The translations under genes and the position numbers were made by a program. Shown here in pieces: positions 361 through 44,200 of a stretch of 44,832 bases of DNA. This stretch comes from Nemertoderma westbladi (taxonomy: Eukaryota; Animalia; Xenacoelomorpha). Within the stretch, counting starts at the first letter, position 1. Every line of letters starts with the position of its first letter. The notes under the pieces were generated by a model. It saw only the letters and a list, made by a program, of their open reading frames with translations. It was not told the DNA's origin and made no database searches. The stretch lies in contig JAUCBJ010008304.1 in the NCBI GenBank assembly GCA_032718475.1, positions 1 through 44,832 of the forward strand, given 5' to 3'.

Positions 361-3300
361 TTAGTTTGTGCTGAGATTCGACATAATATCAGCTATATGG
401 ACTTGACCTGTGTCTTTCAAACACTGGAGGAATATAAGAAAGTCTTTATAAGGCCTTCTAATAATAGAATTAATTAATTCATTATTCTTTCCAATTTTTG
501 TTTTCTGACAACTAATACGTTGTAAAACACAATCGTTCAGAACACCTCTATCCTCAAGACAAATTATCAGTTGTTCTGGTTCAATATTGGAAATTAGTTT
601 AGATTTATTATCTCTAATGATATCAATAAACTCCCCATCATTATTGGCGATTCCATTTAATTGATCTACCAGATGACTCTGATTGGTTGCTCGTAAAGCT
701 TCAACAAATATGTCAAAGTCATTTTCTGTTCCCCATTTTAGTGCCTCTACCAACGATTTATTGGTACTGTAAATTGTTAATTTTGAATTAATGTTATCCA
801 GAACTTCTACAGATAACGCACGTTTCTCATCAAGGTGTATTAGTACCTCTGTTGGTTCCAGTTTCAGACAAAGCATTTTTTGCTGCGTTTTCAACTTATT
901 TCGGTGAGAATTTGAACATCTGCCCTCTGGTAATTGAACACCATATCCAAGCAGACCGGTTTCAAGAGTCTTAAAACATTCCGATAACTTTAGAAAGTGG
1001 AAACACTCTTCGTCTTTACACTTAATAAATTCGTGTTTAATACATGGGGCATCACACGGACAATTTATTTCAAAATTAAACGTTATATTTCTCATCTTTA
1101 GTTGATGAATAATTTCATTCAATGATAATTGTAAATAGTCTTTTACTCTGAACACAATATCTGGATTTGGTTTATTCGCCGCCACGTTATCAATAACACC
1201 ATGGTGCACTTCTTTAAACCTGTTAATTTGAACTTTAATCCAGTGCAAATTTTTACCTGACCTCTCCAAAACGATTACATGGTCAGAATCTAGAAAAATC
1301 TCGGCAGATCTATGAAACAAGTTTGGTTTTATAAAATCACCGCCTACAATATATGATAAATCTAAAACTTTCTTAATCAGCCGGAAATATACACTATCGG
1401 GTAAAAAACCATCAAATGTAATATAAAATTCAATAAAAGATTGGTTTGCTTTCCAAGGTGTTAATTGGGTTGGCTTTAAGCGACAGGGTACATAATACTC
1501 CAATCGTTTATCATGTTTTGGAATGCCCACACACAATAAATTAAAACGTTCCAGAATATTCAATATAAATTGTTTCTTTTCAAAAACCCCTTCCCAGAGA
1601 TACTCAATAAGTTTTTCGTGTAATATGCCATGCTCATCTAGATCTTTCCAGTACATAGCATGTTCTGGTAGTATATTGTCTTTAACAGTTATTATTCTAA
1701 CAAACAGATCACTCAACCACTCAGGGCTTAATATGACCGTATCTCTCAATGATTCATCATCAAAGTAAATTATTTTTCCTAAATCATGATAAAATTCTAG
1801 AACCGTCTTTAATCCAGAATAATCAAACTCTACTTTAAAATCTTTTAACATCCTCTCCAACTCTTCAACCTCAATGCAAACTTTATTTACTTCTATCAAT
1901 TTAACTATAATTTGTTCAAATTTAAGATATTTCAAAGGAATTTCTTCTTTAAACTTAACCATTTCTTTGACAATTGATGCCTGTAATTTTTCTATTTCAA
2001 AATCGTCCTTATTTTTTATTTCGATATTATTTTCAACGGCATAGTATCCCTTAACAATACTCCTCAAAGGGAGAGATTTTTCTACGGAAATTTGAATTTC
2101 TTTAAGTATATTTGTGGCTATGTCATCTTGTTGTTTTGGATCAACATGCAAGCTACTCTTATGTGTTCCTACAATAAAGACTGGAGGATCAATATTCTCT
2201 GTATCACTTTCAGGTTTATGACAGACAGCAAATATGCTTCGCAACCAAAAATAAATATAATCAACGTTTGTCATCTCTCCGTAAAATGTACTAATGGTGC
2301 TATCGGATTCTCTTACAATAATATCCGCTGTTTCATGCAGATCTTTTGATAGATCAAAAACAATTATATACAGAGCTCGTCTATTCAGGAATATCTGATG
2401 GGTGGTGTAAAAAATACACTGTCCTCCAAAATCTACTGTTTGAAGAGAAAACTCTCTGTCTTCTTCGAGGAATTTTGCCAGAATAACATCTTGAGGTTTC
2501 CCAGATAGTAGTATATCTTCAATCCCCGCAGTAATTTGGTCAGGAATTTCATCATGGGCAGGATGACAAACTATTTTATCACTTTCGCCCTTTTGCATTT
2601 TTATATCTTCAGCATATGTTACATTGTTTACATTTGTGATTGAATTATCTGTTTCTGAATCCCGATTCACGATTCGGTTACTGACATTTCCATCACTGAT
2701 ATTGCTAAGCAATGGTGTTCCGATTATTATATCAGTAGATGATGTTGCTTTTACTGAAACATTATTGATTATTTCATTAATATTTTTCGCTTGAAATAAT
2801 TGTTCTTCTTCTGTAACTTTTTTCTTTTCAAGAACAATTTTTGCTATTTGTTTAGCAAGAATTCTGTTTATGTCTGTTTCTACATTGTCTTCAGTCTGGC
2901 ACCTTGTCCAATCAGCACTTTGGTCTGTGTTTATAATACAGGTTGTGGAAGAGTCAATACCATTTGTAATTGGCTCACTCTTATCAAATGTTTGACCAAT
3001 AAGAGCTTTCTTCAAGCTGGTCTTACCAGCTCTTTCTTGTCCTACAAACATTAATCGAGATTTTAGTCTCAAATTTGTTCCTTTAGAAAGTTCGGTTTTA
3101 TAGGCTGATAATGCTTCTGGACCTCTAGATAATATTTCAACAGGTATACCAACTAATTTATCGTTCATATATTTCAGTAATACTTTTGATACAACTATAT
3201 TTTGCTCATTTTTAGTTAGAAGTCCCTTTTCCATAAACTTTTTGATACAATTTATTTTAATTTCCGATATTCTGTTTTGGTTCTGTGTTGATAATTCCAA

Positions 3301-3554
3301 TAATTCATCAGCACACATACTATAGTATACTTCTTTATCATTTGCATTTAGAGAATCAACAGCTAGTCCAATTAACGATTTTATCTTGCCTTGATATGTT
3401 TGACTGATAGGACCAACCCATCCAATATGAATTGAAATTTCAACCCATTTCTTTGCCTTCCTCAACATTCCTTCAATTTCAGTAATACTTGTCGTTGTTT
3501 CAGTTTGTTTTCTAGAATTGGGGTCAATAACGATTATCGTACCATCTTCACCAC
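361..3554 (-). CDS. ROCO protein, coding exon 2: last WD40 strands, Roc GTPase, COR, two CARD-like domains
   Basis: The acceptor ttttattatggcag| at 3555 joins exon 1 in phase to give RHFIIG-GEDGTIIVID, completing a WD40 repeat. Pre-Roc helix IPVEILSRGPEAL; P-loop GQERAGKT (3019-3042); G2 EPITNG; G3 DFGGQ..FYTTHQIFL (2419-2433); G4 VGTHK; COR (LEFYHDLGKIIYF..VILSPEWL, YYVPCRL, FLPDSVYFRLI). Two C-terminal CARD-like repeats end in FVEALRATNQSHLVDQL and FLQCLKDTGQVHIADIM. Joined CDS is 4062 nt = 1353 aa + stop. Confidence 0.9.
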
Positions 3555-3624
3555 CTGCCATAATAAAATTACAATTAAGTATTATTCAACTGTGCGATTT
3601 ATTTAGCTGTAACTGTGCGAAACA

Positions 3625-3895: not shown

Positions 3896-4020
3896 CTATA
3901 CATTTATGGTTATTCTATGGTTAGCCTTCTAGCATTGATTGGCTATTCAAAATTATTAATTAATTTTTTTTTTTGTTAATTCACCATAAAAATTATTACA
4001 AACTTGCAATACATACATAC

Positions 4021-4888
4021 CTATAATAAAATGTCTGCTATTCCTATGGAAGTCAAGAGAGAGCACATTCGCAACAAATCCTCCACTTATTCGATTCAAA
4101 ATCTCCCCATCGATAGAGTCGATTAAGTAGATCAAACCAGTCTTTCCAGCAGTTGCTATTCTAGACCCATCAGAACTGAATGCCAGGCGATACGAATCAA
4201 AAACTCCTTTCTGTTCCCATAACAACTCACCATTGTTTACAAGGAAACGATGGAGTTCACCACCTTCATCCAATGAGACGATTGATTTACCATCAGGACT
4301 CCATACAAGGCGCCAAACTGGTCGTGAGTGACCATAATATACGGTAGTCAACTTTCTTGATGGAGTCGTCCATATTTTAATAGTTGTATCCATTGAGGTA
4401 GTGGCCATTCGAGCGCCGGTTAAATCAAACTGAATATCGATTACTATTCCAGAATGCGCCTTCCAGTTTGAAATGGTATAGGTTGAACCGTCTATAACCA
4501 TCAAAGACAAACCCCCAGCCTCGGCGCTGTCGTTATGCCATCCGCATGTCCCTATAATATTTGGGTTCATCGAATGGAACTGAACGCCTCGGCGTGACAC
4601 AACTATTTCATCTCCGATGCGGAATTCCGTTCCGGGTATCGCGAATCTGAGTTCCCACTTACGGGATTCACAGTACCAAACCATCAACGACCCACTGAGA
4701 GTCCCCGCAGCAATCCGTTTACCATCGTGTGATACCGCAACTCTTCGGAAACTCAGCGACGAATCTTCTACTAAACATTCTTCCACAAATAAAGTGTTTG
4801 TATCAGCTATTGCGACACGATTTGGTGAACTGAATACAAATTGATCAGAATTTCGGAAGCATTGCAACCCCCAGATAGCACGGTCCAT
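4021..4888 (-). CDS. ROCO protein, coding exon 1: WD40 beta-propeller
   Basis: WD40 repeats (VAVSHDGKRIAAGTLSGSLMVW; AHSGIVIDIQFDLTGARMATTSMDTTIKIW; GHSRPVWRLVWSPDGKSIVS). ATG at 4888 is preceded by an in-frame TAA and a tttcag acceptor at 4908, implying a 5'UTR intron. Phase-1 donor G|GTATGT at 4021/4020. Confidence 0.88.
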
Positions 4889-6796
4889 TACTAGGGTAGA
4901 ACTTTATCTGAAATATAATAATATACAATGTGTGAAATTGAATGGCGTAAAATAGTCTTAATTACCAACAAATGTTGTAGGTTTAAGAAATTGATTTAAA
5001 TTAAATTAAAAAAGAGGGAAAAGCGCTTGTTAACGTGGTGGTGTTTTCTAACCAAAACAAAATAAAAACTAGATTTCTCGTGTTATTCATTTGGGATGCA
5101 GTTCATTTTTTAACTTCCTACTATGTTTGCTAGGAGTTTCCTACGGAACTACTGGTGATCTGAACAATGATTTGTATTAATTGGAGTTTAATATGGTCTC
5201 CCGTAGGACATATTAGTGACCTAATTATCACCTACAGCATAACCCCTATAGTAAAATTTGGATTTTCTATTTTAATAAAAACCCATCTTCTTATCAAAAT
5301 AATGTTTGGAGATGTAAATGAATTTATTTAATATAAGAATTAAAATTTGAAATTATGAAACTCAAAGTTGTACACAATTAATTATTTTCGATTAATTCTA
5401 GTGTTACTGATTACAGATCCTCCATATCATTTCTTCAACATTCCGATTATAGGCAACATTATTTAGGTAAAGTGCATTAACTACTAGTAAAAAATCAGCT
5501 TTAGTTCGGTATATTACTTGAAAGAAACCGATACGCATATTAACAATTTCGTTAATTTTGGTCTATGGAGGAAGTATTGGGTCGCAGTCTTGTAACTATT
5601 ATTAACTCGTTATTTATTTATTTACTAATAAATGTTATTATAGAAATACTCTTAATTTAGTTTTGTCGATATCTCTTTTACCCCGCGGCGCATGGGGATG
5701 TACCTTGAATTATTATTAATTGTTTGTAATGTTAAGTTTTTTAATATTTATATTTGTTATTTGGCCTTAAACGACTAGAGTATTTTGTAATAATAAACAA
5801 AATTACCTACCATTTATACTTGCCTTTCAAATCAACGCATATTTGACTGAGATTAAAATAATGAGTGTGTTACAGTTATTACAGTTATCAATTAGAATTA
5901 AATTAATATCAATGTTGAAGACAATTTCCCTATGTTACTTACAGACACTGAGAATACCAGTAAATACACTGTATGGTAAATTAAAGTTGGCACTGAGTGA
6001 CACATTGTACTTTGTGCCTTTATATTATTATTCCCAAGTCCTAACTAAAGTCGTTCTGGTTGTGAACCATGGTTATGGATGTTCATTTAAGTAACATAGC
6101 ACTCTAGCAATTATTATATTTGTACCATAATTTATTATGTTGGTTCTAAGTGTTGAACGAATTGCAAGTAGTAATACATCTGGGGCACTTGTGCAGCACA
6201 TGAGGGGGGTACTACTAGGATCGGCATGCTGCATTGCAGCTGCATTTTTAAGAATGTTGTGCCGGCTTGTCAACAAAATTGCACCGCCACAACTCCCTAT
6301 CACCCATGACATTTGCTAGATCATCCGCATCTTCAAGGCCAGTGTCCTTTAAGATGCGTCTCAAGAAAGTCATGGGCTGTCCACCTTGCTTATTCACTCC
6401 ATGAGGCTGCCAAAGTACAAGATTATGCACTGGTTGGTCCTCACGGCGAAAGCAATGTCCTGCAAAGCGGAGGCGATTTTGTTCTAGTGTCAAGCTTGGG
6501 GGAACCAATGAGACACCTCCAATGTTATATAGTGTCTGGTTGGAGATGTGTGCATTGTACTTGACACAATGAACCCGGCGTAGCATTCTTGTGAATGTGC
6601 CATCCAGAGATTTATTATAGGAAGGGATCTAGGGGTCTTAACCTCGAATGATAAGTTTATTTTACCGAAAATAACTTATCTTTTATTGGCGCAATTGTAG
6701 GACTAATCCCATCACATGCGTACTTTTTAACCGGGTAGTGTACAAATTTAGGAATCGCGTATTTTTTCTTGAAATTAATATCTCATATCTCTCCAA

Positions 6797-6839
6797 ACCA
6801 CGTACGCCTTTCGACCTTACTGGGTCTCATCAGCGTGGT
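6797..6839 (-). ncRNA. Minimal type I hammerhead ribozyme
   Basis: Minus strand reads ACCACG CTGATGA GACC-CAGTAA-GGTC GAAA GGCG TA CGTGGT: 6-bp stem I, CUGAUGA core, 4-bp stem II, GAAA, minimal stem III, GUA cleavage triplet. A partial second copy on + (6936-6966) has the palindromic GAAA-CGCG-TA but lacks CTGATG. Confidence 0.85.
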
Positions 6840-6902
6840 GTCGGATTCGAACCTGGGACCTCGAGGTGCAAGCCGAGACTACAACCACTAGGCCACAGGT
6901 TC
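6836..6902 (-). promoter_or_regulatory. tRNA-derived sequence / type-2 Pol III internal promoter
   Basis: A-box TGGCCTAGTGG (6885-6895), anticodon-like arm with TGC, B-box GGTTCGAATCC (6843-6853). Ends in ACCA; the acceptor stem is incomplete, so this is not a functional tRNA. Confidence 0.75.
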
Positions 6903-9479
6903 TTGAGATATGGAGTATTAATTTCAAAGCCAGTAAGACCCAGTAAGGTCGAAACGCGTACGTGGTTTGGAGAGATATGAGATATTAATTTCAAGAAAAA
7001 ATACGCGATTCCTAAATTTGTACACTACTCGGTTAAAAAGTACGCATGTGATGGGATTAGTCCTACAATTGCGCCAATAAAAGATAAGTTATTTTCGGTA
7101 AAATAAACTTATCATTCGAGGTTAAGACCCCTAGATCCCTTCCTATAATAAATGTATAATAACAAACACCTCGAAAAATACAGCTTGCCAACACATTGTT
7201 ACTATCCAGAGATTTGGTGTCCTCAGCAGTTAGAGCCCAGCATGGACTCCCGTAGAGGAGTACTGGAACTACTGCTGCTCTAAATAATCGGACCTTAAGT
7301 TTCCGATTAATTATCGGTGACTTCCAAATCCTGGAAAGCCTATTCAAGGCTGCCCATGCCTTTCCCTTACGTATTCGAAGGTCCTCACCTGACTTCCGGA
7401 TCCATGATTCCAGGTAACAGAAGTCGTCCACATGCTCAAGCATACTATCCTTTGAGCTTATGCTCATGCTCACGCTGACTAAGTCTTACCTTGGCCACAA
7501 GATGGCGGTGATCACTGGAGAAGGGTCGAAGTGTAAATGCATTACAGTCTTGTATAGAGCTCCTGTATTTCCTACGAAACAGAATATGGTCTATCTGGGA
7601 CTTGTGACCACTGGGTCCACTATGAGTCCATAGCTTTCCAGTTCGCTTCTTGAACTGGGTTCCAGCCGAAAACAATCCATTTCCAGAGATAAAATCCTGA
7701 AGATGGACAGAATTTCGGTTAACACTATTGCTATAGACCCAGGGCGATGTAGGAGATTGATGCAGACTTGCATTAAAGTCTCCCAGGAATGTTAAGAATG
7801 CATGCTGATCCACTCCATCAGTAGCTGCTTGTAGATTGTGGTAGAAATTTTCCACCTCCTCTACAGGGGCACCACTAGTTGGAGAGTAGCACACAATCAG
7901 AACCACCTTAGGAAACTTCTTAGCCATTCTTCCAGAACATGAGAAGTGGCAACGGATGATGCGGTTAGAGATTTGGTCTATTTTGTCCAATGCTGCATGT
8001 GCAGTTGGATTCATCAATAGACCAATTCCACCATTGCCACTATCATCTGCTGACACGAGGGCGAGTTGCCAACCGCCCCCCATGTCCTTAATCAGAACCT
8101 CATCAGTCTGTCCAGTCTGCATTCGGTGCTCTTGAACACCCACTGCGCTAGGAGAAAGCTTATCTGCCAAGGCAGTCAGCTCACCTTGTCGCATTGGGGA
8201 CCCGAGTGTTAGGGTGTTTACTGAGGCTAGTCTAGTGACTTGCCTCGGATTCACCAATGGCTTTGCTGGTCGGGGTGGAACATGAGAGTAGCCTCCAACT
8301 CCAGAATCCCTCTCCCCCTCACAATCTGGCCTCCCTGGTGACCCAGGGTTTGGGCCAGAAAGGTCATCAGGAAAGGGACTCAAAGAATTGTTGGCTGCTC
8401 TCTCTCTCCAGTTGGGGTGTGAGACAGGCAGCCGGTCAGGAGTTAACTGACGCCTGTGAGGCCGATTGTGTCCGGTAATTCCACTGGCCTCTAGTGGCTG
8501 GACCTCCGCATTGCTAATGTAATCCATAGTGGGGGTTGGGGGTGCTTTTTTGCCGAGTCAGCTCTCGGGGCAAATACCACACCCTGGTTTGCCATTCCAC
8601 AGGGTGGGTGTCGCAATGGAGTCAGATATGAGGCCCATCACCAACCAACCAACCATCACTAATCATGCAACCAAGTAACATAAAGGGCGGTACATCCTAA
8701 AAGGGCAAACGAGCTGAACTAAGCTGAAACGACCTGAAACGAGTTGAAACAAGCTGTGAAAACGAATAATATTAGATTCTAGGGGAACTTAGATCTCGGG
8801 TGGGAACTAGTGTGGTGCGACCTCAATTGTACAACCTCAATTGTACATACGTTTCACAAACTCAGTTGTATAATCCTTCTCTATCCAATTGAGAGTAAGT
8901 TTTATTGATGTTTGTCAAGATTCGCTGATGCGAAAGCTTTTGGTGTAAATATTTCCCCCCCCCCCCCATCCCTTTGTCCTAATATGGCAGATACTGAGAT
9001 ATTTGATGCGTCTGTTATTAACTCTGTATGTAACATAGGATCGAAGTGAGATAATTACAGTATGTAGCTTTTGACATTTTCTCCTTCTCAGTTAATTAAA
9101 ACATTGCTGTATTTATTCGTTCCATGTACGTAAATGTACTACTATCTTTAATTAATAAAGCATATAATGGTTTAGCCATTTCTGCATAATGAGGTACGTT
9201 AATGAGGTAATTCATGAACCCCATGATACTAGTTGTAGTTTCTTTTTGGATGTTGTTTGGATTCATGTCTAGTACTACCCGAACTTTTTTAGGATCTGGT
9301 AAAAATCCCCCTTTTTTTATAATTTTTCCACAGAATTCGTTGGTTGTTTAGACTAAGTTTAAGTTCTTAATTCTGTACCTGTAAATCGCGTATTTTTTTG
9401 CTGTGGACAGACAATACGTAGGCTGTAGTTCTTAATTTTTTCTAAATCGTATATAAGTTTTTTAAAACCATGTATATTA

Positions 9480-20564: not shown

Positions 20565-21514
20565 TTCAATTAACATTTTTAATAAAAAATATATATATAT
20601 TTATTTATATTTCTGCCACCCATAAATTGTTCAACCTATACAACACGTAAATGCCATCCTTCTAAGTACTGTAGGGAAAGTTTTATATTCCAATTATTTG
20701 AATAGGGAATTACCACAAATTATAAACGATGTATTTTCAGTGCGTCCCCTAGAATAACTATCAGAAGCTACAAAAAGAAGCTGTAACAAATTACTCCACT
20801 GGAACTAAACATAAAAGGATAATAATTCACAAGAGAAGTCAGTGATAAGTACAACATTATATTTAATTAATTTTCGCATCTCTCTCCACTGCTATATTAA
20901 ATATACATACCATCTTCCTTCATAACAAACAAATCAATATCTTTGTAACAACATAGTGTTTATATAACATATATATTATTGAATATAGTTAAGCAGCTTA
21001 AGTAATGGTGTGTTCTATGTCGTATATTGCTTTTACGCCGTCTTAGTATTACCTACAATACTGTAATGGGATTTAATGATGGAGATTTCAATTAGTTTTC
21101 TGTTATGCTTGCTGCTTTCTGAGACCATCAAGGATTCAAAAAGTCTTAAAAATACTAGACGTAACACACGATAAGTTAATTAATATTAAGCATTAGAATA
21201 ATGTGACAGAATATCATGGTCTACTACAATCAGCATAAACTTTAACAGCAATAAGACACAAAAATACCTGCCCCTGTATCGTACCTGTGAATACATCTAA
21301 GTCTGGCGCCTTACCTAGTGAGCTATGAGAAAGATAAATTACCACAGAAACAACAATAATAATTATGGTAATAGTCATGGTTATAGTAATAATTATACTG
21401 TAATTACGTTTTATAATAAATTGTACTGTACATCGTTACATCTAACTCGTTGAGTCGGAATATTGTCTCGCTCTTGGTAGAGTTTTACGTAGTGTAATTA
21501 CGTTTTGTATTTGT

Positions 21515-22540: not shown

Positions 22541-22613
22541 CACCGGAAAGCAGGATTGAACTCGGTACCTAGAGATTTTAAGTCCAACGCTCTACCAACT
22601 TCGCTACTGCGCC
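22541..22613 (-). mobile_element. tRNA-derived SINE head / tRNA pseudogene
   Basis: GGCGCAGTAGCGAAGTTGGTAGAGCGTTGGACTTAAAATCTCTAGGTACCGAGTTCAATCC: A- and B-box-like motifs with broken stems. Confidence 0.65.
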
Positions 22614-26889: not shown

Positions 26890-27277
26890 ACTATAGGGTA
26901 AAATATAAGTAATAAAAACCTCTACGAAACAATAAAGATGCCTCCAAAAAATACTGCAGTAATAAATATTTGTTACTGAAAGTAAGAATTAAACTTACTG
27001 CAGTAATAAATAATTGTCTTTTTCTGCAGTAACAAATAATTTGTTACTGCAGTATAAATTTTTATTCAATTATTTATTAATATTGATTACTGCAGTATAG
27101 ATTTTTATTCAATTATTTATTAATTTATTAATATTGATTATTGCAGTAATAAATATTTGTTACTGCAGTAATTGTTATATGTTACTGCAGTAACTAATAT
27201 TTAATACAGCAGCATTTTTTGTAGGTATTTTTATTGTTTCATAGAGGATTTTATTAATTTATATTTGGACTCTTTAG
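26890..27277. mobile_element. Foldback MITE with ~70-bp inverted arms and internal TACTGCAGTA repeats
   Basis: aatataagtaataaaaacctctacgaaacaataaa... is mirrored by ...tttattgtttcatagaggattttattaatttatatt; many palindromic tactgcagta units lie between the arms. Confidence 0.65.
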
Positions 27278-29659: not shown

Positions 29660-29831
29660 CTTGGAAAAAAAGAAAATAAATTAATTTAATATTTATTATC
29701 CAAACCATTCCACTTATTAATCCACCCCCTGTGTGACTTGTTTAACGTGTGGGGCGAGTCAGAAACGTGAGCCATCAGCGAGCGGTTATAATTATACTCG
29801 GGCCGTTTACAGAAATGCCGGTGTGTGCGTC

Positions 29832-31730
29832 AGAAGCCAGCATTGACAAAAGCCAACATTGTCGGAAGGCAACAATGTTGGAAGCCAACATTGTCGGAAG
29901 CCAACATTGTCGGAAGGCAACAATGTTGGAAGCCAACATAGTCGGAAGCCAACATTGTTGGAAGCCCACATAGTCGGAAGGCAACAATGTTGGAAGCCAA
30001 CATAGTCGGAAGCCAACATTGTTGGAAGCCCACATAGTCGAGAGCCAACATAGTCGGAAGCCAACATTGTCGAAAGCCAACATAGTCGGAAGCCAACATT
30101 GTTGGAAGCCAACATAGTCGGAAGCCAACATAGTCGGAAGCCAACATTGTTGGAAGCCAACATTGTGCAAGCCAACATAGTCGAAAGCCAACATTGTTGG
30201 AAGCCAACATAGTCGGAAGCGAACATAGTCGAAAGCCAACATTGTTGGAAGCCAACATTGTCGGAAGCCAACATAGTCGGAAGCAAACATAGTCGGAAGC
30301 CAACATTGTTGGAAGCCAACAAAGTCGGAAGCCAACATAGTCGGAAGCCAACATTGTCGGAAGCCAACATTGTTGGATCCATCATTGCCGGAAGCCAAAA
30401 TTGTCGCAAGCCAACATAGTCGGAAGCCAACATTGTTGGAAGCCAACATTGTTGGAAGCCAACATTGTTGGAAGCCAACATTGTCGGAAGCCAACATTGT
30501 CGGAAGCCAACATTATCGCAAGCCAACATAGTCGGAAGCCAACATTGTTGGAAGCCAACATAGTCGGAAGCCAACATAGTCGGAAGCCAACATTGTCGGA
30601 AGCCAACATTGTCGCATGCCAACATAGTCAGAAGCCAACATTGTTGGAAGCCAACATTGTGCAAGCCAACATAGTCGGAAGCCAACATTGTTGGAAGCCA
30701 ACTTTCTCGGAAGCCAACATTGTTGGAAGCCAACATTGTTGGAAGCCAACATTGTTGGAAGCCAACATTGTTGGACGCCAACATAGTCAGAAGCCAACAT
30801 TGTCGGAAGCCAACATTGTTGGAAGCGAACATTGTCGGAAGCCAACATTATCGTAAGCCAACATAGTCGGAAGCCAACATTGTGGAAGCCAACATTGTTG
30901 GAAGCCAACATTGTTGGAAGTCAACATTGTTGGAAGCCAACATTGTTGGAAGCCAACTGTGTTGGAAGCCAACATTGTTGGAAGCCAACATTGTTGGAAG
31001 CCAACATTGTTGGAGGCCAACATTGTCGGAAGCCAACATTGGTGGAAGCCAACATTGTCGGAAGCCAACTGTGTTGGTAGCCAACATTGTTGAAAGCCAA
31101 CATTATCGGAAGCCAACATTGTCGCAAGCCAACGTAGTTGGAAGCCAACATTGTTGGAAGTCAACATTGTCTGAAGCCAACATTGTTGGAAGCCAACATT
31201 GTTGGAAGCCAACTGTGTTGGAAGCCAACATAGTCGGAAGCCAATATTGTTGGAAGGCAACTTTGTTAGAAGCCAACATTGTTAGAAGCCAACTGTGTTG
31301 GGAGCCAACATTGTTGGAAGCCAACATTGTGCAAGCTAACATTGTTGGAAGCCAACATTGTGCAAGCCAACATAGTCGGAAGCCAACATTGTTGGAAGCC
31401 AACTTTGTTAGAAGCCAACATTGTGCAAGCCAACATAGTCGGAAGCCAACATTGTTAGAAGCCAACTGTGTTGGAAGCCAACATTGTTGGAAGCCAAATG
31501 TGTTGGAAGCCAACATTGTTGGAAGCCAACATTGTGCAAGCCAACATTGTCGGAAGCCAACATTGTGCAAGTCATCATAGTCGGAAGCCAACATTGTTGA
31601 TAGTAAGAATGTGTTGGCAAGCTGTAATTCCTTCCTATAATGAGTTGGAAGCTAGTTGGAAGCCAACATTGTTGTAAGCCAACATTGTTGTAAGCCAACA
31701 TTGTTGGAAGCCAACATTGTCGGAAGCCAA
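29832..31730. repeat. Degenerate 15-bp satellite (GAAGCCAACATTGTT/CG), ~125 copies
   Basis: Tandem array with cattgttg, cattgtcg, catagtcg and ctgtgttg variants; it accounts for the many overlapping ORFs here. Confidence 0.95.
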
Positions 31731-32220
31731 TAACTATACTTTCTAACCCGACAGACGGGCATTTAAGGGTGGCCCAGATATTCATAATTGTAGTAGTTTG
31801 ATGTCGGCTTACCGTTCTGATGCAATTAATATTTAATTCAATAGCAACCTACCAAACAGAGTGAGATAGAGTGAGAAACAGAGAGTACATATAATATAGA
31901 ATAAATATTACTTATATATAATTATGTTTTCAATATTTTTCTACTGTCACCGGTTTTTCCACAAAAATTTGTTTATTAATGTTATTAATTTTACATCCGA
32001 TAAGTACTTAGTGAACCTCTAGGCTTTATTGGTAGAAATTTATTTGTAAAATCATTTGTTTACAAACAAGATATTAATAGTTTGAGGATTTTTTGCGGAT
32101 GCAAAGAAATAATATACAGTATAACAAGTTGATATTCTTGTTTGATAATATTTGTTTAATTTTTTAGCAGGTAGGGCACGGTTGAAATGAAAATGACAAG
32201 ATTTGCATATCACTACAGTT

Positions 32221-35200
32221 AGTTAAGTTAATACTAACAATTTTAACTAACTCTAATTTAACACTAACAATTTTAACTAACTCTAATTTAATACTAACAA
32301 TTTTAACTAACTCTAATTTAACACTAACAATTTTAACTAACTCTAATTTAATACTAACAATTTTAACTAACTCTAATTTAATACTAACAATTTTAACTAA
32401 CTCTAATTTAATACTAACAATTTTAACTAACTCTAATTTAATACTAACAATTTTAACTAACTCTAATTTAATACTAACAATTTTAACTAACTCTAATTTA
32501 ATACTAACAATATTAACTAACTCTAATTTAATAATAACAATTTTAACTAACTCTAATTTAATACTAACAATTTTAACTAACTCTAATTTAATACTAACAA
32601 TTTTAACTAACTCTAATTTAATACTAACAATTTTAACTAACTCTAATTTAATACAAACAATTTTAACTAACTCTAATTTAATACTAACAATTTTAACTAA
32701 CTCTAATTTAATACTAACAATTTTAACTAACTCTAATTTAATACTAACAATTTTAACTAACTCTAATTTAATACTAACAATTTTAACTAACTCTAATTTA
32801 ATACTAACAATTTTAACTAACTCTAATTTAATACTAACAATATTAACTAACTCTAATTTAATAATAACAATTTTAACTAACTCTAATTTAATACTAACAA
32901 TTTTAACTAACTCTAATTTAATACTAACAATTTTAACTAACTCTAATTTAATACTAACAATTTTAACTAACTCTAATTTAATACAAACAATTTTAACTAA
33001 CTCTAATTTAATACTAACAATTTTAACTAACTCTAATTTAATACTAACAATTTTAACTAACTCTAATTTAATACTAACAATTTTAACTAACTCTAATTTA
33101 ATACTAACAATTTTAACTAACTCTAATTTAATACTAACAATTTTAACTAACTCTAATTTAATACTAACAATTTTAACTAACTCTAATTTAATACTAACAA
33201 TATTAACTAACTCTAATTTAATAATAACAATTTTAACTAACTCTAATTTAATACTAACAATTTTAACTAACTCTAATTTAATACTAACAATTTTAACTAA
33301 CTCTAATTTAATACTAACAATTTTAACTAACTCTAATTTAATACAAACAATTTTAACTAACTCTAATTTAATACTAACAATTTTAACTAACTCTAATTTA
33401 ATACTAACAATTTTAACTAACTCTAATTTAATACTAACAATTTTAACTAACTCTAATTTAATACAAACAATTTTAACTAACTCTAATTTAATACTAACAA
33501 TTTTAACTAACTCTAATTTAATACTAACGATTTTAACTAACTCTAATTTAATACTAACGATTTTAACTAACTCTAATTTAATACTAACAATTTTAACTAA
33601 CTCTAATTTAATACTAACAATTTTAACTAACTCTAATTTAATACTGACAATTTTAACTAACTCTAATTTAATACTAACAATTTTAACTAACTCTAATTTA
33701 ATACTAACAATTTTAACTAACTCTAATTTAATACTAACAATTTTAACTAACTCTAATTTAATACTAACAATTTTAACTAACTCTAATTTAATACTAACAA
33801 TTTTAACTAACTCTAATTTAATACTAACAATTTTAACTAACTCTAATTTAATACTAACAATTTTAACTAACTCTAATTTAATACTAACAATTTTAACTAA
33901 CTCTAATTTAATACTAACAATTTTAACTAACTCTAATTTAATACTAACAATTTTAACTAACTCTAATTTAATACTAACAATATTAACTAACTCTAATTTA
34001 ATAATAACAATTTTAACTAACTCTAATTTAATACTAACAATTTTAACTAACTCTAATTTAATACTAACAATTTTAACTAACTCTAATTTAATACTAACAA
34101 TTTTAACTAACTCTAATTTAATACAAACAATTTTAACTAACTCTAATTTAATACTAACAATTTTAACTAACTCTAATTTAATACTAACAATTTTAACTAA
34201 CTCTAATTTAATACTAACAATTTTAACTAACTCTAATTTAATACTAACAATTTTAACTAACTCTAATTTAATACTAACAATTTTAACTAACTCTAATTTA
34301 ATACTAACAATTTTAACTAACTCTAATTTAATACTAACAATTTTAACTAACTCTAATTTAATACTAACAATTTTAACTAACTCTAATTTAATACTAACAA
34401 TTTTAACTAACTCTAATTTAACACTAACAATTTTAACTAACTCTAATTTAATACTAACAATTTTAACTAACTCTAATTTAATACTAACAATTTTAACTAA
34501 CTCTAATTTAATACTAACGATTTTAACTAACTCTAATTTAATACTAACGATTTTAACTAACTCTAATTTAATACTAACAATTTTAACTAACTCTAATTTA
34601 ATACTAACAATTTTAACTAACTCTAATTTAATACTGACAATTTTAACTAACTCTAATTTAATACTAACAATTTTAACTAACTCTAATTTAATACTAACAA
34701 TTTTAACTAACTCTAATTTAATACTAACAATTTTAACTAACTCTAATTTAATACTAACAATTTTAACTAACTCTAATTTAATACTAACAATTTTAACTAA
34801 CTCTAATTTAATACTAACAATTTTAACTAACTCTAATTTAATACTAACAATTTTAACTAACTCTAATTTAATACTAACAATTTTAACTAACTCTAATTTA
34901 ATACTAACAATTTTAACTAACTCTAATTTAACACTAACAATTTTAACTAACTCTAATTTAATAATAACAATTTTAACTAACTCTAATTTAATACTAACGA
35001 TTTTAACTAACACTAATTTAATACTAACAATTTTAACTAACTCTAATTTAATACTAACGATTTTAACTAACACTAATTTAATACTAACGATTTTAACTAA
35101 CACTAATTTAATACTAACAATTTTAACTAACACTAATTTAATACTAACAATTTTAACTAACTCTAATTTAATACTAACAATTTTAACTAACTCTAATTTA

Positions 35201-38200
35201 ACACTAACAATTTTAACTAACTCTAATTTAATACTAACAATTTTAACTAACTCTAATTTAATACTAACAATTTTAACTAACTCTAATTTAATACTAACGA
35301 TTTTAACTAACTCTAATTTAATACTAACGATTTTAACTAACTCTAATTTAATACTAACAATTTTAACTAACTCTAATTTAATACTAACAATTTTAACTAA
35401 CTCTAATTTAATACTGACAATTTTAACTAACTCTAATTTAATACTAACAATTTTAACTAACTCTAATTTAATACTAACAATTTTAACTAACTCTAATTTA
35501 ATACTAACAATTTTAACTAACTCTAATTTAATACTAACAATTTTAACTAACTCTAATTTAATACTAACAATTTTAACTAACTCTAATTTAATACTAACAA
35601 TTTTAACTAACTCTAATTTAATACTAACAATTTTAACTAACTCTAATTTAATACTAACAATTTTAACTAACTCTAATTTAATACTAACAATTTTAACTAA
35701 CTCTAATTTAACACTAACAATTTTAACTAACTCTAATTTAATAATAACAATTTTAACTAACTCTAATTTAATACTAACGATTTTAACTAACACTAATTTA
35801 ATACTAACAATTTTAACTAACTCTAATTTAATACTAACGATTTTAACTAACACTAATTTAATACTAACGATTTTAACTAACACTAATTTAATACTAACAA
35901 TTTTAACTAACACTAATTTAATACTAACAATTTTAACTAACTCTAATTTAATACTAACAATTTTAACTAACTCTAATTTAATACTAACAATTTTAACTAA
36001 CTCTAATTTAATACTAACAATTTTAACTAACTCTAATTTAACACTAACAATTTTAACTAACTCTAATTTAATACTAACAATTTTAACTAACTCTAATTTA
36101 ATACTAACAATTTTAACTAACTCTAATTTAATACTAACGATTTTAACTAACACTAATTTAATACTAACAATTTTAACTAACTCTAATTTAATACTAACAA
36201 TTTTAACTAACTCTAATTTAATACTAACAATTTTAACTAACTCTAATTTAATAATAACAATTTTAACTAACTCTAATTTAATACTAACGATTTTAACTAA
36301 CACTAATTTAATACTAACAATTTTAACTAACTCTAATTTAATACTAACGATTTTAACTAACACTAATTTAATACTAACGATTTTAACTAACACTAATTTA
36401 ATACTAACAATTTTAACTAACACTAATTTAATACTAACAATTTTAACTAACTCTAATTTAATACTAACGATTTTAACTAACACTAATTTAATACTAACAA
36501 TTTTAACTAACTCTAATTTAATACTAACAATTTTAACTAACTCTAATTTAACACTAACAATTTTAACTAACACTAATTTAATACTAACGATTTTAACTAA
36601 CACTAATTTAATACTAACAATTTTAACTAACACTAATTTAATACTAACAATTTTAACTAACTCTAATTTAATACTAACGATTTTAACTAACACTAATTTA
36701 ATACTAACGATTTTAACTAACACTAATTTAATACTAACAATTTTAACTAACTCTAATTTAATACTAACAATTTTAACTAACTCTAATTTAATACTAACAA
36801 TTTTAACTAACTCTAATTTAATACTAACAATTTTAACTAACTCTAATTTAATAGTAACAATTTTAACTAACTCTATTTAATACTAACAATTTTAACTAAC
36901 TCTAATTTAACACTAACAATTTTAACTAACTCTAATTTAATACTAACGATTTTAACTAACACTAATTTAATACTAACGATTTTAACTAACTCTAATTTAA
37001 TACTAACAATTTTAACTAACTCTAATTTAATACTAACAATTTTAACTAACTCTAATTTAACACTAACAATTTTAACTAACTCTAATTTAATACTAACAAT
37101 TTTAACTAACTCTAATTTAATACTAACAATTTTAACTAACTCTAATTTAATACTAACGATTTTAACTAACACTAATTTAATACTAACAATTTTAACTAAC
37201 TCTAATTTAATACTAACAATTTTAACTAACTCTAATTTAATACTAACAATTTTAACTAACTCTAATTTAATACTAACAATTTTAACTAACTCTAATTTAA
37301 TACTAACGATTTTAACTAACACTAATTTAATACTAACGATTTTAACTAACACTAATTTAATACTAACAATTTTAACTAACACTAATTTAATACTAACAAT
37401 TTTAACTAACTCTAATTTAATACTAACAATTTTAACTAACTCTAATTTAATACTAACAATTTTAACTAACACTAATTTAATACTAACAATTTTAACTAAC
37501 TCTAATTTAACACTAACAATTTTAACTAACTCTAATTTAATACTAACGATTTTAACTAACTCTAATTTAACACTAACAATTTTAACTAACACTAATTTAA
37601 TACTAACAATTTTAACTAACTCTAATTTAATACTAACGATTTTAACTAACTCTAATTTAACACTAACAATTTTAACTAACTCTAATTTAATACTAACGAT
37701 TTTAACTAACTCTAATTTAACACTAACAATTTTAACTAACTCTAATTTAATACTAACAATTTTAACTAACTCTAATTTAATACTAACAATTTTAACTAAC
37801 TCTAATTTAACACTAACAATTTTAACTAACTCTAATTTAATACTAACAATTTTAACTAACTCTAATTTAATACTAACAATTTTAACTAACTCTAATTTAA
37901 TACTAACAATTTTAACTAACTCTAATTTAATACTAACAATTTTAACTAACTCTAATTTAATACTAACAATTTTAACTAACTCTAATTTAATACTAACAAT
38001 TTTAACTAACTCTAATTTAACACTAACAATTTTAACTAACTCTAATTTAATACTAACAATTTTAACTAACTCTAATTTAACACTAACAATTTTAACTAAC
38101 TCTAATTTAATACTAACAATTTTAACTAACTCTAATTTAATACTAACAATTTTAACTAACTCTAATTTAATACTAACAATTTTAACTAACTCTAATTTAA

Positions 38201-41200
38201 TACTAACAATTTTAACTAACTCTAATTTAATACTAACAATTTTAACTAACTCTAATTTAATACTAACAATTTTAACTAACTCTAATTTAATACTAACAAT
38301 TTTAACTAACTCTAATTTAATACTAACAATTTTAACTAACTCTAATTTAATACTAACAATTTTAACTAACTCTAATTTAATACTAACAATTTTAACTAAC
38401 TCTAATTTAATACTAACAATTTTAACTAACTCTAATTTAATACTAACAATTTTAACTAACTCTAATTTAATACTAACAATTTTAACTAACTCTAATTTAA
38501 TACTAACAATTTTAACTAACTCTAATTTAATACTAACAATTTTAACTAACTCTAATTTAATACTAACAATTTTAACTAACTCTAATTTAATACTAACAAT
38601 TTTAACTAACTCTAATTTAATACTAACAATTTTAACTAACTCTAATTTAATACTAACAATTTTAACTAACTCTAATTTAATACTAACAATTTTAACTAAC
38701 TCTAATTTAATACTAACAATTTTAACTAACTCTAATTTAATACTAACAATTTTAACTAACTCTAATTTAATACTAACAATTTTAACTAACTCTAATTTAA
38801 TACTAACAATTTTAACTAACTCTAATTTAATACTAACAATTTTAACTAACTCTAATTTAATACTAACAATTTTAACTAACTCTAATTTAATACTAACAAT
38901 TTTAACTAACTCTAATTTAATACTAACAATTTTAACTAACTCTAATTTAATACTAACAATTTTAACTAACTCTAATTTAATACTAACAATTTTAACTAAC
39001 TCTAATTTAATACTAACAATTTTAACTAACTCTAATTTAATACTAACAATTTTAACTAACTCTAATTTAATACTAACAATTTTAACTAACTCTAATTTAA
39101 TACTAACAATTTTAACTAACTCTAATTTAATACTAACAATTTTAACTAACTCTAATTTAATACTAACAATTTTAACTAACTCTAATTTAATACTAACAAT
39201 TTTAACTAACTCTAATTTAATACTAACAATTTTAACTAACTCTAATTTAATACTAACAATTTTAACTAACTCTAATTTAATACTAACAATTTTAACTAAC
39301 TCTAATTTAATACTAACAATTTTAACTAACTCTAATTTAATACTAACAATTTTAACTAACTCTAATTTAATACTAACAATTTTAACTAACTCTAATTTAA
39401 TACTAACAATTTTAACTAACTCTAATTTAATACTAACAATTTTAACTAACTCTAATTTAATACTAACAATTTTAACTAACTCTAATTTAATACTAACAAT
39501 TTTAACTAACTCTAATTTAATACTAACAATTTTAACTAACTCTAATTTAATACTAACAATTTTAACTAACTCTAATTTAATACTAACAATTTTAACTAAC
39601 TCTAATTTAATACTAACAATTTTAACTAACTCTAATTTAATACTAACAATTTTAACTAACTCTAATTTAATACTAACAATTTTAACTAACTCTAATTTAA
39701 TACTAACAATTTTAACTAACTCTAATTTAATACTAACAATTTTAACTAACTCTAATTTAATACTAACAATTTTAACTAACTCTAATTTAATACTAACAAT
39801 TTTAACTAACTCTAATTTAATACTAACAATTTTAACTAACTCTAATTTAATACTAACAATTTTAACTAACTCTAATTTAATACTAACAATTTTAACTAAC
39901 TCTAATTTAATACTAACAATTTTAACTAACTCTAATTTAATACTAACAATTTTAACTAACTCTAATTTAATACTAACAATTTTAACTAACTCTAATTTAA
40001 TACTAACAATTTTAACTAACTCTAATTTAATACTAACAATTTTAACTAACTCTAATTTAATACTAACAATTTTAACTAACTCTAATTTAATACTAACAAT
40101 TTTAACTAACTCTAATTTAATACTAACAATTTTAACTAACTCTAATTTAATACTAACAATTTTAACTAACTCTAATTTAATACTAACAATTTTAACTAAC
40201 TCTAATTTAATACTAACAATTTTAACTAACTCTAATTTAATACTAACAATTTTAACTAACTCTAATTTAATACTAACAATTTTAACTAACTCTAATTTAA
40301 TACTAACAATTTTAACTAACTCTAATTTAATACTAACAATTTTAACTAACTCTAATTTAATACTAACAATTTTAACTAACTCTAATTTAATACTAACAAT
40401 TTTAACTAACTCTAATTTAATACTAACAATTTTAACTAACTCTAATTTAATACTAACAATTTTAACTAACTCTAATTTAATACTAACAATTTTAACTAAC
40501 TCTAATTTAATACTAACAATTTTAACTAACTCTAATTTAATACTAACAATTTTAACTAACTCTAATTTAATACTAACAATTTTAACTAACTCTAATTTAA
40601 TACTAACAATTTTAACTAACTCTAATTTAATACTAACAATTTTAACTAACTCTAATTTAATACTAACAATTTTAACTAACTCTAATTTAATACTAACAAT
40701 TTTAACTAACTCTAATTTAATACTAACAATTTTAACTAACTCTAATTTAATACTAACAATTTTAACTAACTCTAATTTAATACTAACAATTTTAACTAAC
40801 TCTAATTTAATACTAACAATTTTAACTAACTCTAATTTAATACTAACAATTTTAACTAACTCTAATTTAATACTAACAATTTTAACTAACTCTAATTTAA
40901 TACTAACAATTTTAACTAACTCTAATTTAATACTAACAATTTTAACTAACTCTAATTTAATACTAACAATTTTAACTAACTCTAATTTAATACTAACAAT
41001 TTTAACTAACTCTAATTTAATACTAACAATTTTAACTAACTCTAATTTAATACTAACAATTTTAACTAACTCTAATTTAATACTAACAATTTTAACTAAC
41101 TCTAATTTAATACTAACAATTTTAACTAACTCTAATTTAATACTAACAATTTTAACTAACTCTAATTTAATACTAACAATTTTAACTAACTCTAATTTAA

Positions 41201-44200
41201 CACTAACAATTTTAACTAACTCTAATTTAATACTAACAATTTTAACTAACTCTAATTTAATACTAACAATTTTAACTAACTCTAATTTAATACTAACGAT
41301 TTTAACTAACTCTAATTTAATACTAACGATTTTAACTAACTCTAATTTAATACTAACAATTTTAACTAACTCTAATTTAATACTAACAATTTTAACTAAC
41401 TCTAATTTAATACTAACAATTTTAACTAACTCTAATTTAATACTAACAATTTTAACTAACTCTAATTTAATACTAACAATTTTAACTAACTCTAATTTAA
41501 TACTAACAATTTTAACTAACTCTAATTTAACACTAACAATTTTAACTAACTCTAATTTAATACTAACAATTTTAACTAACTCTAATTTAATACTAACAAT
41601 TTTAACTAACTCTAATTTAATACTAACGATTTTAACTAACACTAATTTAATACTAACAATTTTAACTAACTCTAATTTAATACTAACAATTTTAACTAAC
41701 TCTAATTTAATACTAACAATTTTAACTAACTCTAATTTAATAATAACAATTTTAACTAACTCTAATTTAATACTAACGATTTTAACTAACACTAATTTAA
41801 TACTAACAATTTTAACTAACTCTAATTTAATACTAACGATTTTAACTAACACTAATTTAATACTAACGATTTTAACTAACACTAATTTAATACTAACAAT
41901 TTTAACTAACACTAATTTAATACTAACAATTTTAACTAACTCTAATTTAATACTAACGATTTTAACTAACACTAATTTAATACTAACAATTTTAACTAAC
42001 TCTAATTTAATACTAACAATTTTAACTAACTCTAATTTAATACTAACAATTTTAACTAACTCTAATTTAATACTAACAATTTTAACTAACTCTAATTTAA
42101 TACTAACAATTTTAACTAACTCTAATTTAACACTAACAATTTTAACTAACTCTAATTTAATACTAACAATTTTAACTAACTCTAATTTAATACTAACAAT
42201 TTTAACTAACTCTAATTTAATACTAACGATTTTAACTAACTCTAATTTAATACTAACGATTTTAACTAACTCTAATTTAATACTAACAATTTTAACTAAC
42301 TCTAATTTAATACTAACAATTTTAACTAACTCTAATTTAATACTGACAATTTTAACTAACTCTAATTTAATACTAACAATTTTAACTAACTCTAATTTAA
42401 TACTAACAATTTTAACTAACTCTAATTTAATACTAACAATTTTAACTAACTCTAATTTAACACTAACAATTTTAACTAACTCTAATTTAATACTAACAAT
42501 TTTAACTAACTCTAATTTAATACTAACAATTTTAACTAACTCTAATTTAATACTAACGATTTTAACTAACACTAATTTAATACTAACAATTTTAACTAAC
42601 TCTAATTTAATACTAACAATTTTAACTAACTCTAATTTAATACTAACAATTTTAACTAACTCTAATTTAATAATAACAATTTTAACTAACTCTAATTTAA
42701 TACTAACGATTTTAACTAACACTAATTTAATACTAACAATTTTAACTAACTCTAATTTAATACTAACAATTTTAACTAACTCTAACTTAATACTAACAAT
42801 TTTAACTAACTCTAATTTAATACTAACAATTTTAACTAACTCTAATTTAATACTAACAATTTTAACTAACTCTAATTTAATACTAACAATTTTAACTAAC
42901 TCTAATTTAATACTAACAATATTAACTAACTCTAATTTAATAATAACAATTTTAACTAACTCTAATTTAATACTAACAATTTTAACTAACTCTAATTTAA
43001 TACTAACAATTTTAACTAACTCTAATTTAATACTAACAATTTTAACTAACTCTAATTTAATACAAACAATTTTAACTAACTCTAATTTAATACTAACAAT
43101 TTTAACTAACTCTAATTTAATACTAACAATTTTAACTAACTCTAATTTAATACTAACAATTTTAACTAACTCTAATTTAATACTAACAATTTTAACTAAC
43201 TCTAATTTAATACTAACAATTTTAACTAACTCTAATTTAATACTAACAATTTTAACTAACTCTAATTTAATACTAACAATTTTAACTAACTCTAATTTAA
43301 TACTAACAATTTTAACTAACTCTAATTTAATACTAACAATTTTAACTAACTCTAATTTAACACTAACAATTTTAACTAACTCTAATTTAATACTAACAAT
43401 TTTAACTAACTCTAATTTAATACTAACAATTTTAACTAACTCTAATTTAATACTAACGATTTTAACTAACTCTAATTTAATACTAACGATTTTAACTAAC
43501 TCTAATTTAATACTAACAATTTTAACTAACTCTAATTTAATACTAACAATTTTAACTAACTCTAATTTAATACTGACAATTTTAACTAACTCTAATTTAA
43601 TACTAACAATTTTAACTAACTCTAATTTAATACTAACAATTTTAACTAACTCTAATTTAATACTAACAATTTTAACTAACTCTAATTTAACACTAACAAT
43701 TTTAACTAACTCTAATTTAATACTAACAATTTTAACTAACTCTAATTTAATACTAACAATTTTAACTAACTCTAATTTAATACTAACGATTTTAACTAAC
43801 ACTAATTTAATACTAACAATTTTAACTAACTCTAATTTAATACTAACAATTTTAACTAACTCTAATTTAATACTAACAATTTTAACTAACTCTAATTTAA
43901 TAATAACAATTTTAACTAACTCTAATTTAATACTAACGATTTTAACTAACACTAATTTAATACTAACAATTTTAACTAACTCTAATTTAATACTAACGAT
44001 TTTAACTAACACTAATTTAATACTAACGATTTTAACTAACACTAATTTAATACTAACAATTTTAACTAACACTAATTTAATACTAACAATTTTAACTAAC
44101 TCTAATTTAATACTAACGATTTTAACTAACACTAATTTAATACTAACAATTTTAACTAACTCTAATTTAATACTAACAATTTTAACTAACTCTAATTTAA

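What the first reader, a model, noticed from the sequence alone, without database searches (positions are those of the whole stretch)
6769..6926. tRNA-derived Pol III promoter fused directly to a minimal hammerhead ribozyme, clamped by a long stem
Seen on the minus strand, in order: TTGAAATTAATACTCCATATCTC; a tRNA-like A-box and B-box; ACCACG, where the tRNA-like ACCA end is itself the 5' strand of hammerhead stem I; CTGATGA / stem II / GAAA / GUA; then GAGATATGAGATATTAATTTCAA. The flanks (6905-6926 and 6769-6791) are imperfectly complementary and would enclose the whole cassette. Known: minimal type I hammerheads mark Penelope-like elements and animal non-LTR retrozymes, and Schistosoma Sm-alpha combines Pol III boxes with a hammerhead. 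Inference: a self-promoting, self-cleaving non-autonomous retroelement (a tRNA-headed retrozyme or PLE-mobilised SINE), possibly a new family that may make small circular RNAs.
Basis: partly seen in the sequence, partly recalled or inferred. Interest (0 to 1): 0.8.

Follow-up and report, generated by a model that had tools for sequence, protein, structure and literature searches.

The report
tRNA-headed hammerhead retrozyme, mirror-image insertion
This is one damaged, mirror-image insertion of an abundant 411-base non-coding repeat of an animal that joins a tRNA-like promoter motif to a predicted self-cutting hammerhead RNA, a design already known from blood flukes, and its ends suggest that a Penelope-type jumping-gene enzyme likely copied it from an uncut or circular RNA.

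Summary
The motifs are real. They are part of a 590-bp insertion (6614-7203) between two copies of a 12-bp target, inside a LINE. The insertion has a sense arm (6933-6610, minus strand) and an inverted arm with a 50-57 nt tail. Public contigs show a multi-copy family; one contig closes on itself at 411 bp with no long ORF. The hammerhead is the canonical animal type I, not the minimal Penelope form. The family allele has a palindromic stem III and folds best as an active double hammerhead; this copy has lost that base and has one core only. ACCA is not a tRNA CCA end, and the clamp's 5' strand lies upstream of the predicted Pol III start, so the clamp can form only in read-through or circular RNA. 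A 43-bp remnant at 31.6 kb uses the same two ends, which points to Penelope-type priming. Expression, cleavage, circles and the partner enzyme are untested. Closest known: Schistosoma Sm-alpha and animal non-LTR retrozymes. The scan already noted 411/412-bp elements of this design on other pieces of this genome and similar ones in other genomes. Verdict: new member of a known kind.

The parts
6602..6613 (.). target-site duplication, copy 1 (12 bp)
   Evidence: identical to 7204-7215; empty-site joint 6601->7204 with 12 shared letters in 4 of 4 runs
7204..7215 (.). target-site duplication, copy 2 (12 bp)
6614..7203 (.). whole insertion (590 bp; 597 bp if the 4 and 3 letters shared with the target are counted)
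   Evidence: joint skips 602 = 590 + 12
6610..6933 (-). sense arm: 324 of the 411 bases of the family monomer
   Evidence: X4 contig positions 1-324, 3 other letters
6905..6927 (-). 5' strand of the clamp stem, upstream of the predicted Pol III start
   Evidence: 20 of 23 complementary to 6769-6791; fold
6837..6902 (-). decayed tRNA-derived head (predicted Pol III internal promoter)
   Evidence: tRNA profile positions 5-67 match 6898-6837, E 2.7e-5; not a tRNA by ARAGORN or Rfam
6885..6895 (-). A-box motif
   Evidence: still box-like in relative X7 (table 3)
6843..6853 (-). B-box motif
6797..6839 (-). canonical type I hammerhead motif, predicted cut after 6803; base 6808 differs from the family and breaks the palindromic stem III
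   Evidence: Rfam RF00163 22 bits; variant table; cofold
6769..6791 (-). 3' strand of the clamp stem
6936..7153 (+). inverted arm: second copy of the monomer's 3' part, starting inside hammerhead helix II (no catalytic 5' core)
   Evidence: 218 nt, 2 differences from 6610-6827
7150..7206 (+). A/C-rich tail between the two inferred reverse-transcription start points (50-57 nt), present on one arm only
   Evidence: sequence; X4 contig positions 359-441; 35 of 53 letters of 7154-7206 are A or C
6248..8557 (-). host LINE fragment (AP-endonuclease part and C-terminal part) interrupted by the insertion
   Evidence: ORFs; Pfam Exo_endo_phos; the two flanks read on as one protein region, with a frame offset caused by my cut points
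31599..31641 (+). 43-bp remnant of a second insertion: 31 nt from the tail end (inverted) plus 12 nt of the sense end
   Evidence: BLAST 29 of 31 identical, E 9e-8; next 12 nt equal 6625-6614

Best explanation
The finding is the head of a 411-bp non-coding repeat, here inserted as a mirror-image pair between 12-bp target duplications, that likely works as a tRNA-promoter retrozyme mobilised by a Penelope-like enzyme. Shown: the insertion, its target duplication, the inverted arm and tail, the multi-copy family, a contig that closes at 411 bp, the lack of a long ORF. Inferred cycle: (1) Pol III starts near 6902 from the A and B boxes of one unit of a tandem source and reads into the next unit (one T4 run in the 377 monomer bases held); (2) two hammerheads pair through the palindromic stem III and would cut unit-length RNA with the promoter at its 3' end, which a host ligase would close into a circle in which the clamp stem can form; (3) a Penelope-type protein would nick AT-rich DNA on both strands 12 bp apart and prime cDNA from each nick, at two fixed sites that flank the tail; (4) the two truncated cDNAs join head to head. 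Both arms run through the cleavage site, so the template was uncut multimer or ligated circle. This copy has one core, a broken palindrome and no upstream unit, so it is likely a dead end.
For: Empty-site joint with 12 shared letters in 4 of 4 runs. X4 contig of 441 letters whose last 30 repeat its first 30: 324 + 34 + 53 = 411; the same linker start hangs off 6933 in 20 X1 and 5 X2 contigs. At 6808 the family letter holds 133,481 of 133,556 depth in X1 and 92,706 of 92,839 in X2; with it the cofold minimum is exactly the double hammerhead with open cores (-31.7 kcal/mol), while for the window letter that fold (-25.3) loses to a mispaired one (-30.6). The remnant at 31599-31641 uses the same two ends. 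7 of the 15 joints shown (of 41) are other arm-to-arm inversion junctions. Both arms share a minority letter (6762/7001; the other letter holds 89-99% of depth), as expected from one source. Inverted 5'-truncated copy plus tail on one end is the PLE signature (PMC8557442); a purified PLE protein nicks and extends both strands, starts at two sites flanking the tail, prefers AT-rich targets and uses uncut RNA (PMC11167929). Relative X7 keeps head, hammerhead and part of the tail but not the spacer.
Against: No autonomous PLE was found or could be sought (no genome). The closed 411-bp contig comes from one run of another organism label, laid with only 2 records; it may be carried-over DNA and shows head-to-tail order, not an RNA circle. 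No head-to-tail joint appears in the shown rows for X1, X2 or X6 (tables are cut). The tail is 50-57 nt against 30-40 nt published and barely folds (-0.5 kcal/mol), whereas the published start sites lie in a stem-loop. Both ends share 3-4 letters with the target, while the in vitro PLE start is not homologous. T-run depletion is not significant (1 observed, 1.25 expected). The inversion joints have short sides (20-35 letters). In PMC-held and preprint tests many such motifs cleave poorly (1 of 9 Xenopus dimers).
Confidence: 0.7

Rival explanations
1. The repeat is the terminal repeat (pLTR) of a protein-coding Penelope-like element that has a tRNA-derived promoter, and the short copies are truncated by-products of that element.
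For: All insertion features are PLE features. One X6 contig of depth 512 has 444 unaligned letters beyond the tail end (record 16), which I could not read. Earlier unchecked notes report this layout in other genomes.
Against: The ATG in the hammerhead, where the Anolis PLE ORF starts, opens only 15 codons here. The X4 contig returns from the tail to the head after 34 letters. The hammerhead is the canonical retrozyme form, not the minimal PLE form.
Confidence: 0.15
2. It is a SINE-like repeat mobilised by a LINE enzyme, and the inversion is LINE-type twin priming on a multimeric RNA.
For: LINEs are very abundant here (depth over the LINE flanks is several times that over the element); 12-bp duplication and 3-4 nt microhomology fit LINE priming; the sense arm stops 34-37 nt short of the second priming point, as twin priming predicts (twin priming recalled, not read). 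An unchecked note reports 412-bp units joined to a LINE tail in this genome.
Against: No poly(A) or simple-repeat tail; no BLAST match between the element and any LINE piece of the window (window only); two fixed end points reused at 31.6 kb; the second priming point lies downstream of the first, giving a one-sided tail.
Confidence: 0.1
3. The family spreads mainly as DNA (satellite amplification, foldback repair), and head and hammerhead are relics without current function.
For: No RNA evidence was obtained; this copy is damaged; some X6 variants are decayed and sit in amplified contexts.
Against: Perfect 12-bp duplication, about 1% divergence, variable truncation junctions, and retention of head and hammerhead where the spacer has diverged (X7: 2 other letters over 6780-6859, spacer not aligned at 80%).
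Confidence: 0.05

Closest known systems
Schistosoma Sm-alpha / Sj-alpha SINE-like hammerhead retroposons (passages of PMC6765202, and PMC2770079; Ferbeyre 1998 not held; Laha 2000 seen only as a reference)
   Same: tRNA-derived Pol III promoter followed by a type I hammerhead, tandem units, promoter ending up at the 3' end of the cut monomer so that single copies are dead ends, high copy number.
   Different: Another animal (clade not fixed); sequence homology not tested; short palindromic stem III predicted to need a dimer; PLE-type inverted arm and tail documented here, which the passages read do not describe for Sm-alpha.
Metazoan non-LTR retrozymes (PMC7229834, parts 2 and 4 of 6 plus passages; bioRxiv 10.64898/2026.07.22.740005, parts 1-3 of 5)
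   Same: Canonical type I hammerhead in a 150-450 bp tandem unit, GC under 50% (41% here), non-coding, target duplication over 4 bp, proposed PLE mobilisation.
   Different: An internal tRNA-type promoter: term counts in PMC7229834 gave 0 for 'Pol III' and 'SINE'. Circular RNA is shown there, not here.
EN+ Penelope-like elements, e.g. Poseidon of Anolis carolinensis (PMC11167929 parts 1-2 of 4; PMC8557442 passages; PMC4209133 passages)
   Same: Inverted 5'-truncated copy, one-sided tail between two start points, AT-rich target, hammerhead upstream of the start points.
   Different: No RT/GIY-YIG ORF in the monomer; tail 50-57 nt, not 30-40; canonical, not minimal, hammerhead; tRNA-derived head.

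Membership tests
Metazoan non-LTR retrozyme | canonical type I hammerhead | tested here: met
   helix sizes match the definition; Rfam score below gathering for this mutated copy
Metazoan non-LTR retrozyme | head-to-tail unit of about 150-450 bp | tested here: met
   one self-closing contig, 411 bp (X4); linker loose ends in X1 and X2; the window itself holds no tandem
Metazoan non-LTR retrozyme | no protein coding | tested here: met
   15-codon frame from the hammerhead ATG; the two frames of 90 aa or more that overlap it are a stop-to-stop frame without annotation and LINE read-through; 34 linker bases not fully seen
Metazoan non-LTR retrozyme | target duplication longer than 4 bp, GC under 50% | tested here: met
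   12 bp; 133 of 324 G+C
Metazoan non-LTR retrozyme | self-cleavage | not testable with these tools
   predicted for a dimer of the family allele only
Metazoan non-LTR retrozyme | expressed as linear and circular monomer RNA | not testable with these tools
   only contigs were served; no run on record as RNA
Sm-alpha-type SINE-like hammerhead retroposon | tRNA-derived A and B boxes directly upstream of the hammerhead | tested here: met
   majority state of the family
Sm-alpha-type SINE-like hammerhead retroposon | transcription by Pol III | not testable with these tools
   motifs only; T-run test inconclusive
Sm-alpha-type SINE-like hammerhead retroposon | sequence homology to Sm-alpha or Sj-alpha | not tested
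   no such sequence was served by a tool
Autonomous Penelope-like element | ORF with PLE reverse transcriptase and GIY-YIG endonuclease | tested here: not met
   none in the monomer or among 10 window ORFs scanned; rest of genome not available
Penelope-type insertion structure | inverted 5'-truncated copy and one-sided tail with fixed ends | tested here: met
   tail longer than published
Classical LINE-mobilised SINE | 3' poly(A), simple repeat or LINE-derived tail | tested here: not met
   no such tail; no match to LINE pieces of the window; other LINEs of the genome not compared
Functional tRNA gene | cloverleaf recognised by ARAGORN or Rfam RF00005 | tested here: not met

The most novel reading that the evidence does not exclude
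tRNA-headed hammerhead circles are a recurring class of 'Penelope SINEs': Pol III-driven small RNA circles that Penelope enzymes copy from both target strands at two fixed sites, which arose independently in several eukaryote lineages (this animal, its relative X7, the unrelated 1-kb tandem repeat L029, and schistosomes), and this insertion is a direct genomic footprint of two-strand priming on such a circle.
Probability: 0.4. Interest if true: 0.65.

Novelty: new member of a known kind. Interest (0 to 1): 0.42.

Why it matters
Who transcribes animal retrozymes and which enzyme re-inserts them are open points; the papers read name PLEs as the strong candidate without a mechanism. A young family with its own promoter motif, two sharp end points, a tail and many independent inversion junctions gives a compact natural substrate to test Penelope-type priming on circular against linear RNA. 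The design itself is known from schistosomes since 1998, and the scan has met it repeatedly, so this copy adds support and geometry, not a new class.

Tried and rejected
No genome is held, so copy number, arrays and a partner PLE could not be searched. No RNA holder listed; X4 is only guessed to be RNA, held 2 records whose depth ratio (112.6 to 13.8) resembles that of DNA runs, and was not used as expression evidence. Summed contig depth was not used as copy number. tRNA isotype unresolved: best of 108 tRNAs from fetched loci was Gly(GCC), score 34 against a shuffle maximum of 32 in 200, but the half without the B-box was not above chance (30 of 200 shuffles as high); the family letter at 6869 would give a TCC loop and the X7 letters a TTC loop. 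T-run depletion as a sign of Pol III read-through: not significant; L029 has 0 T4 runs and 8 A4 runs in 1804 nt, not tested against shuffles. Pattern scans found no close relative: of 37 loci only L029 matched by BLAST (31 nt); 5 loci gave no BLAST match and no tRNA head. Host clade not fixed: best protein hits were 25-52% identical to lancelet, brittle star, coral and bivalve proteins. Rfam miRNA hits (mir-1000, mir-7386) are below gathering scores and treated as chance hairpins. The clamp as an artefact of the inversion was rejected because both strands lie in the X4 monomer. Polymorphism of this insertion cannot be read from the empty-site joint because the target is a multi-copy LINE. Ferbeyre 1998 is not held. 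Supplements of the papers were not read and may list similar elements; Repbase and Dfam were not searchable.
Full report
Observation. The A-box is at 6895-6885 and the B-box at 6853-6843. The hammerhead spans 6839-6797 with the cut predicted after 6803. Rfam Hammerhead_1 covers it end to end at 22 bits, under the gathering score of 34. A strict descriptor found it and nothing in 300 shuffles of the first 32 kb. The head is tRNA-derived but not a tRNA: a profile of 90 tRNAs from loci fetched here matches 6898-6837 at E 2.7e-5, while ARAGORN and Rfam report none. The clamp pairs 20 of 23 bases and the 158-mer folds at z -6.4.

Corrections. ACCA aligns to about positions 65-68 of the 75-position profile, so helix I replaces the acceptor-stem 3' strand and ACCA is not a CCA end (that eukaryotic tRNA genes do not encode CCA is my own knowledge). 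Helices of 6, 4 and 2 bp with a palindromic loop III are the canonical metazoan type I form of PMC4209133 (passages), which PMC7229834 places in retrozyme repeats, with minimal forms in PLEs (part 2). Profile position 1 falls near 6902, so the clamp's 5' strand lies upstream of the predicted Pol III start and can pair only in read-through or circular RNA (inference).

Surroundings. The motif lies in one arm of a 218-bp inverted repeat (6610-6827 and 6936-7153, 2 differences). A 12-bp duplication flanks it (6602-6613 and 7204-7215), and the target is a LINE fragment. Contigs that skip 602 letters with 12 shared occur in 4 of 4 runs laid (14, 9, 1 and 3 contigs); they may come from other copies of the LINE. 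The inverted arm starts inside helix II, lacks the catalytic 5' core, and runs 50-57 nt past the end of the sense arm into an A/C-rich tail. The host is an animal; protein hits do not fix the clade. No genome is held.

The family. 7 of 12 listed runs hold part of the stretch; 1,336 X2 contigs lie on the 590 bases. In X4 a single 441-letter contig covers 6610-6933, then 34 other letters, then 7206-7124 on the other strand; its last 30 letters repeat its first 30, so the unit is 411 bp, head to tail. The same linker start hangs off 6933 in 20 X1 and 5 X2 contigs. X4 carries another organism label and only 2 matching records, so it is no evidence of RNA. This copy differs from the majority at 6762, 6808 and 6869. 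The change at 6808 matters: the family letter (over 99.8% of depth in X1 and X2; also in the window's own inverted arm) makes stem III a six-base palindrome, and two such motifs have the open-core double hammerhead as their minimum-energy fold (-31.7 kcal/mol); for the window letter that fold is -25.3 and loses to a mispaired one at -30.6. A sediment metagenome (X7, 3 contigs) holds a relative with 2 other letters over 6780-6859, 12-13 over 6830-6925, part of the tail, and a spacer that does not align at 80%.

How it inserted. A 43-bp remnant at 31599-31641 consists of the tail end, inverted, plus the last 12 bases of the sense end, so an independent event used the same two end points. Of 41 joints, 15 are shown and 7 of these join sense arm to inverted arm at other points, with short sides of 20-35 letters; one more is. 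An inverted truncated copy and a one-sided tail are PLE hallmarks (PMC8557442 passages). The purified Anolis PLE protein nicks and extends both strands, prefers AT-rich DNA, starts at two internal sites that flank the tail, and uses uncut RNA (PMC11167929 parts 1-2). I infer that each nick primed one arm. Both arms cross the cleavage site, and both share a minority letter (6762 and 7001; the other letter holds 89-99% of depth), which fits one uncut multimer or one circle as template; later homogenisation of the arms or two RNAs from one source locus would also fit. Against: the tail is longer than published and barely folds, both ends share 3-4 letters with the target, and no partner PLE was seen.

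Rivals. A coding Penelope with a tRNA-headed terminal repeat (lead) is weakened by the 15-codon frame from the hammerhead ATG and by the 411-bp closure, but one deep X6 contig has 444 unread letters beyond the tail. LINE-driven twin priming is weakened by the fixed ends and the lack of a LINE-like tail (window only). Purely DNA-level spread is weakened by the duplication, the varied truncations and the conservation pattern in X7.

Relatives elsewhere. A B-box plus hammerhead pattern gave 30 metagenome and 7 viral loci, 25 distinct. One, L029, has the same design: a decayed tRNA head (E 1.5e-5), a type I hammerhead with the same palindrome and a tandem unit of about 1,012 bp at 85% identity, with no similarity beyond 31 nt of hammerhead. 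Most others are true tRNAs in phage-like clusters followed by a hammerhead (see noticed in passing).

Comparison with what is known. Promoter plus hammerhead in tandem units, with single copies as dead ends, is the Sm-alpha design (PMC6765202 passages; PMC2770079 passages; the original paper is not held). Animal non-LTR retrozymes make circles and are proposed to use PLEs. Eight searches of the paper library listed no paper whose title or abstract start describes a tRNA-headed, PLE-inserted retrozyme outside schistosomes; subscription journals, supplements, Repbase and Dfam were not seen. The scan's own unchecked notes describe 411/412-bp elements of this design on at least four other pieces of this genome and similar ones in other genomes; my reading was recorded before these look-ups, and I could not compare their sequences.

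Verdict. A real, young, probably dead copy of a tRNA-headed hammerhead retrozyme family with Penelope-type ends. New member of a known kind; interest 0.42.

Noticed in passing
L001-L037 (e.g. L001:1025-1150, L030:1148-1280): 16 of 25 distinct loci from the pattern scans have an ARAGORN tRNA ending 2-16 nt before a hammerhead core, mostly within tRNA clusters, several on viral contigs; 11 of the 16 close as type I hammerheads by a crude script test. tRNA adjacency is partly built into the pattern. Two paper searches found nothing; scan notes mention related phage layouts.
   Followed up: partly
L029:887-1020: Unrelated tandem repeat of about 1,012 bp with decayed tRNA head and type I hammerhead with the same palindromic stem III; a second example of the design.
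   Followed up: partly
window 31599-31641: 43-bp remnant of the same family inside a 16-bp satellite, using the same two ends.
   Followed up: yes
window 22548-22612, minus strand: Another decayed tRNA-like sequence (profile E 6.9e-7), probably a SINE head; a weaker one at 21296-21327.
   Followed up: no
window 32074-44832 and 29725-31720: A 30-bp satellite of over 400 near-identical units, nearly G-free on the plus strand, and a 16-bp satellite with inverted blocks.
   Followed up: no
window 361-3585, minus strand: Single long ORF (1,074 aa) with Roc, COR-A and two CARD-like domains, next to a WD40 ORF at 3956-4903; best hits 25-35% to marine invertebrate proteins.
   Followed up: partly
window 26907-27259: AT-rich palindromic repeat region with 22-bp subunits; its weak mir-1000 match is probably chance.
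   Followed up: no
L038-L040:2900-3100: Three contigs of bacterial MAGs share a related hammerhead-core repeat without a tRNA head, two copies on one contig; possibly host DNA in the bins.
   Followed up: no
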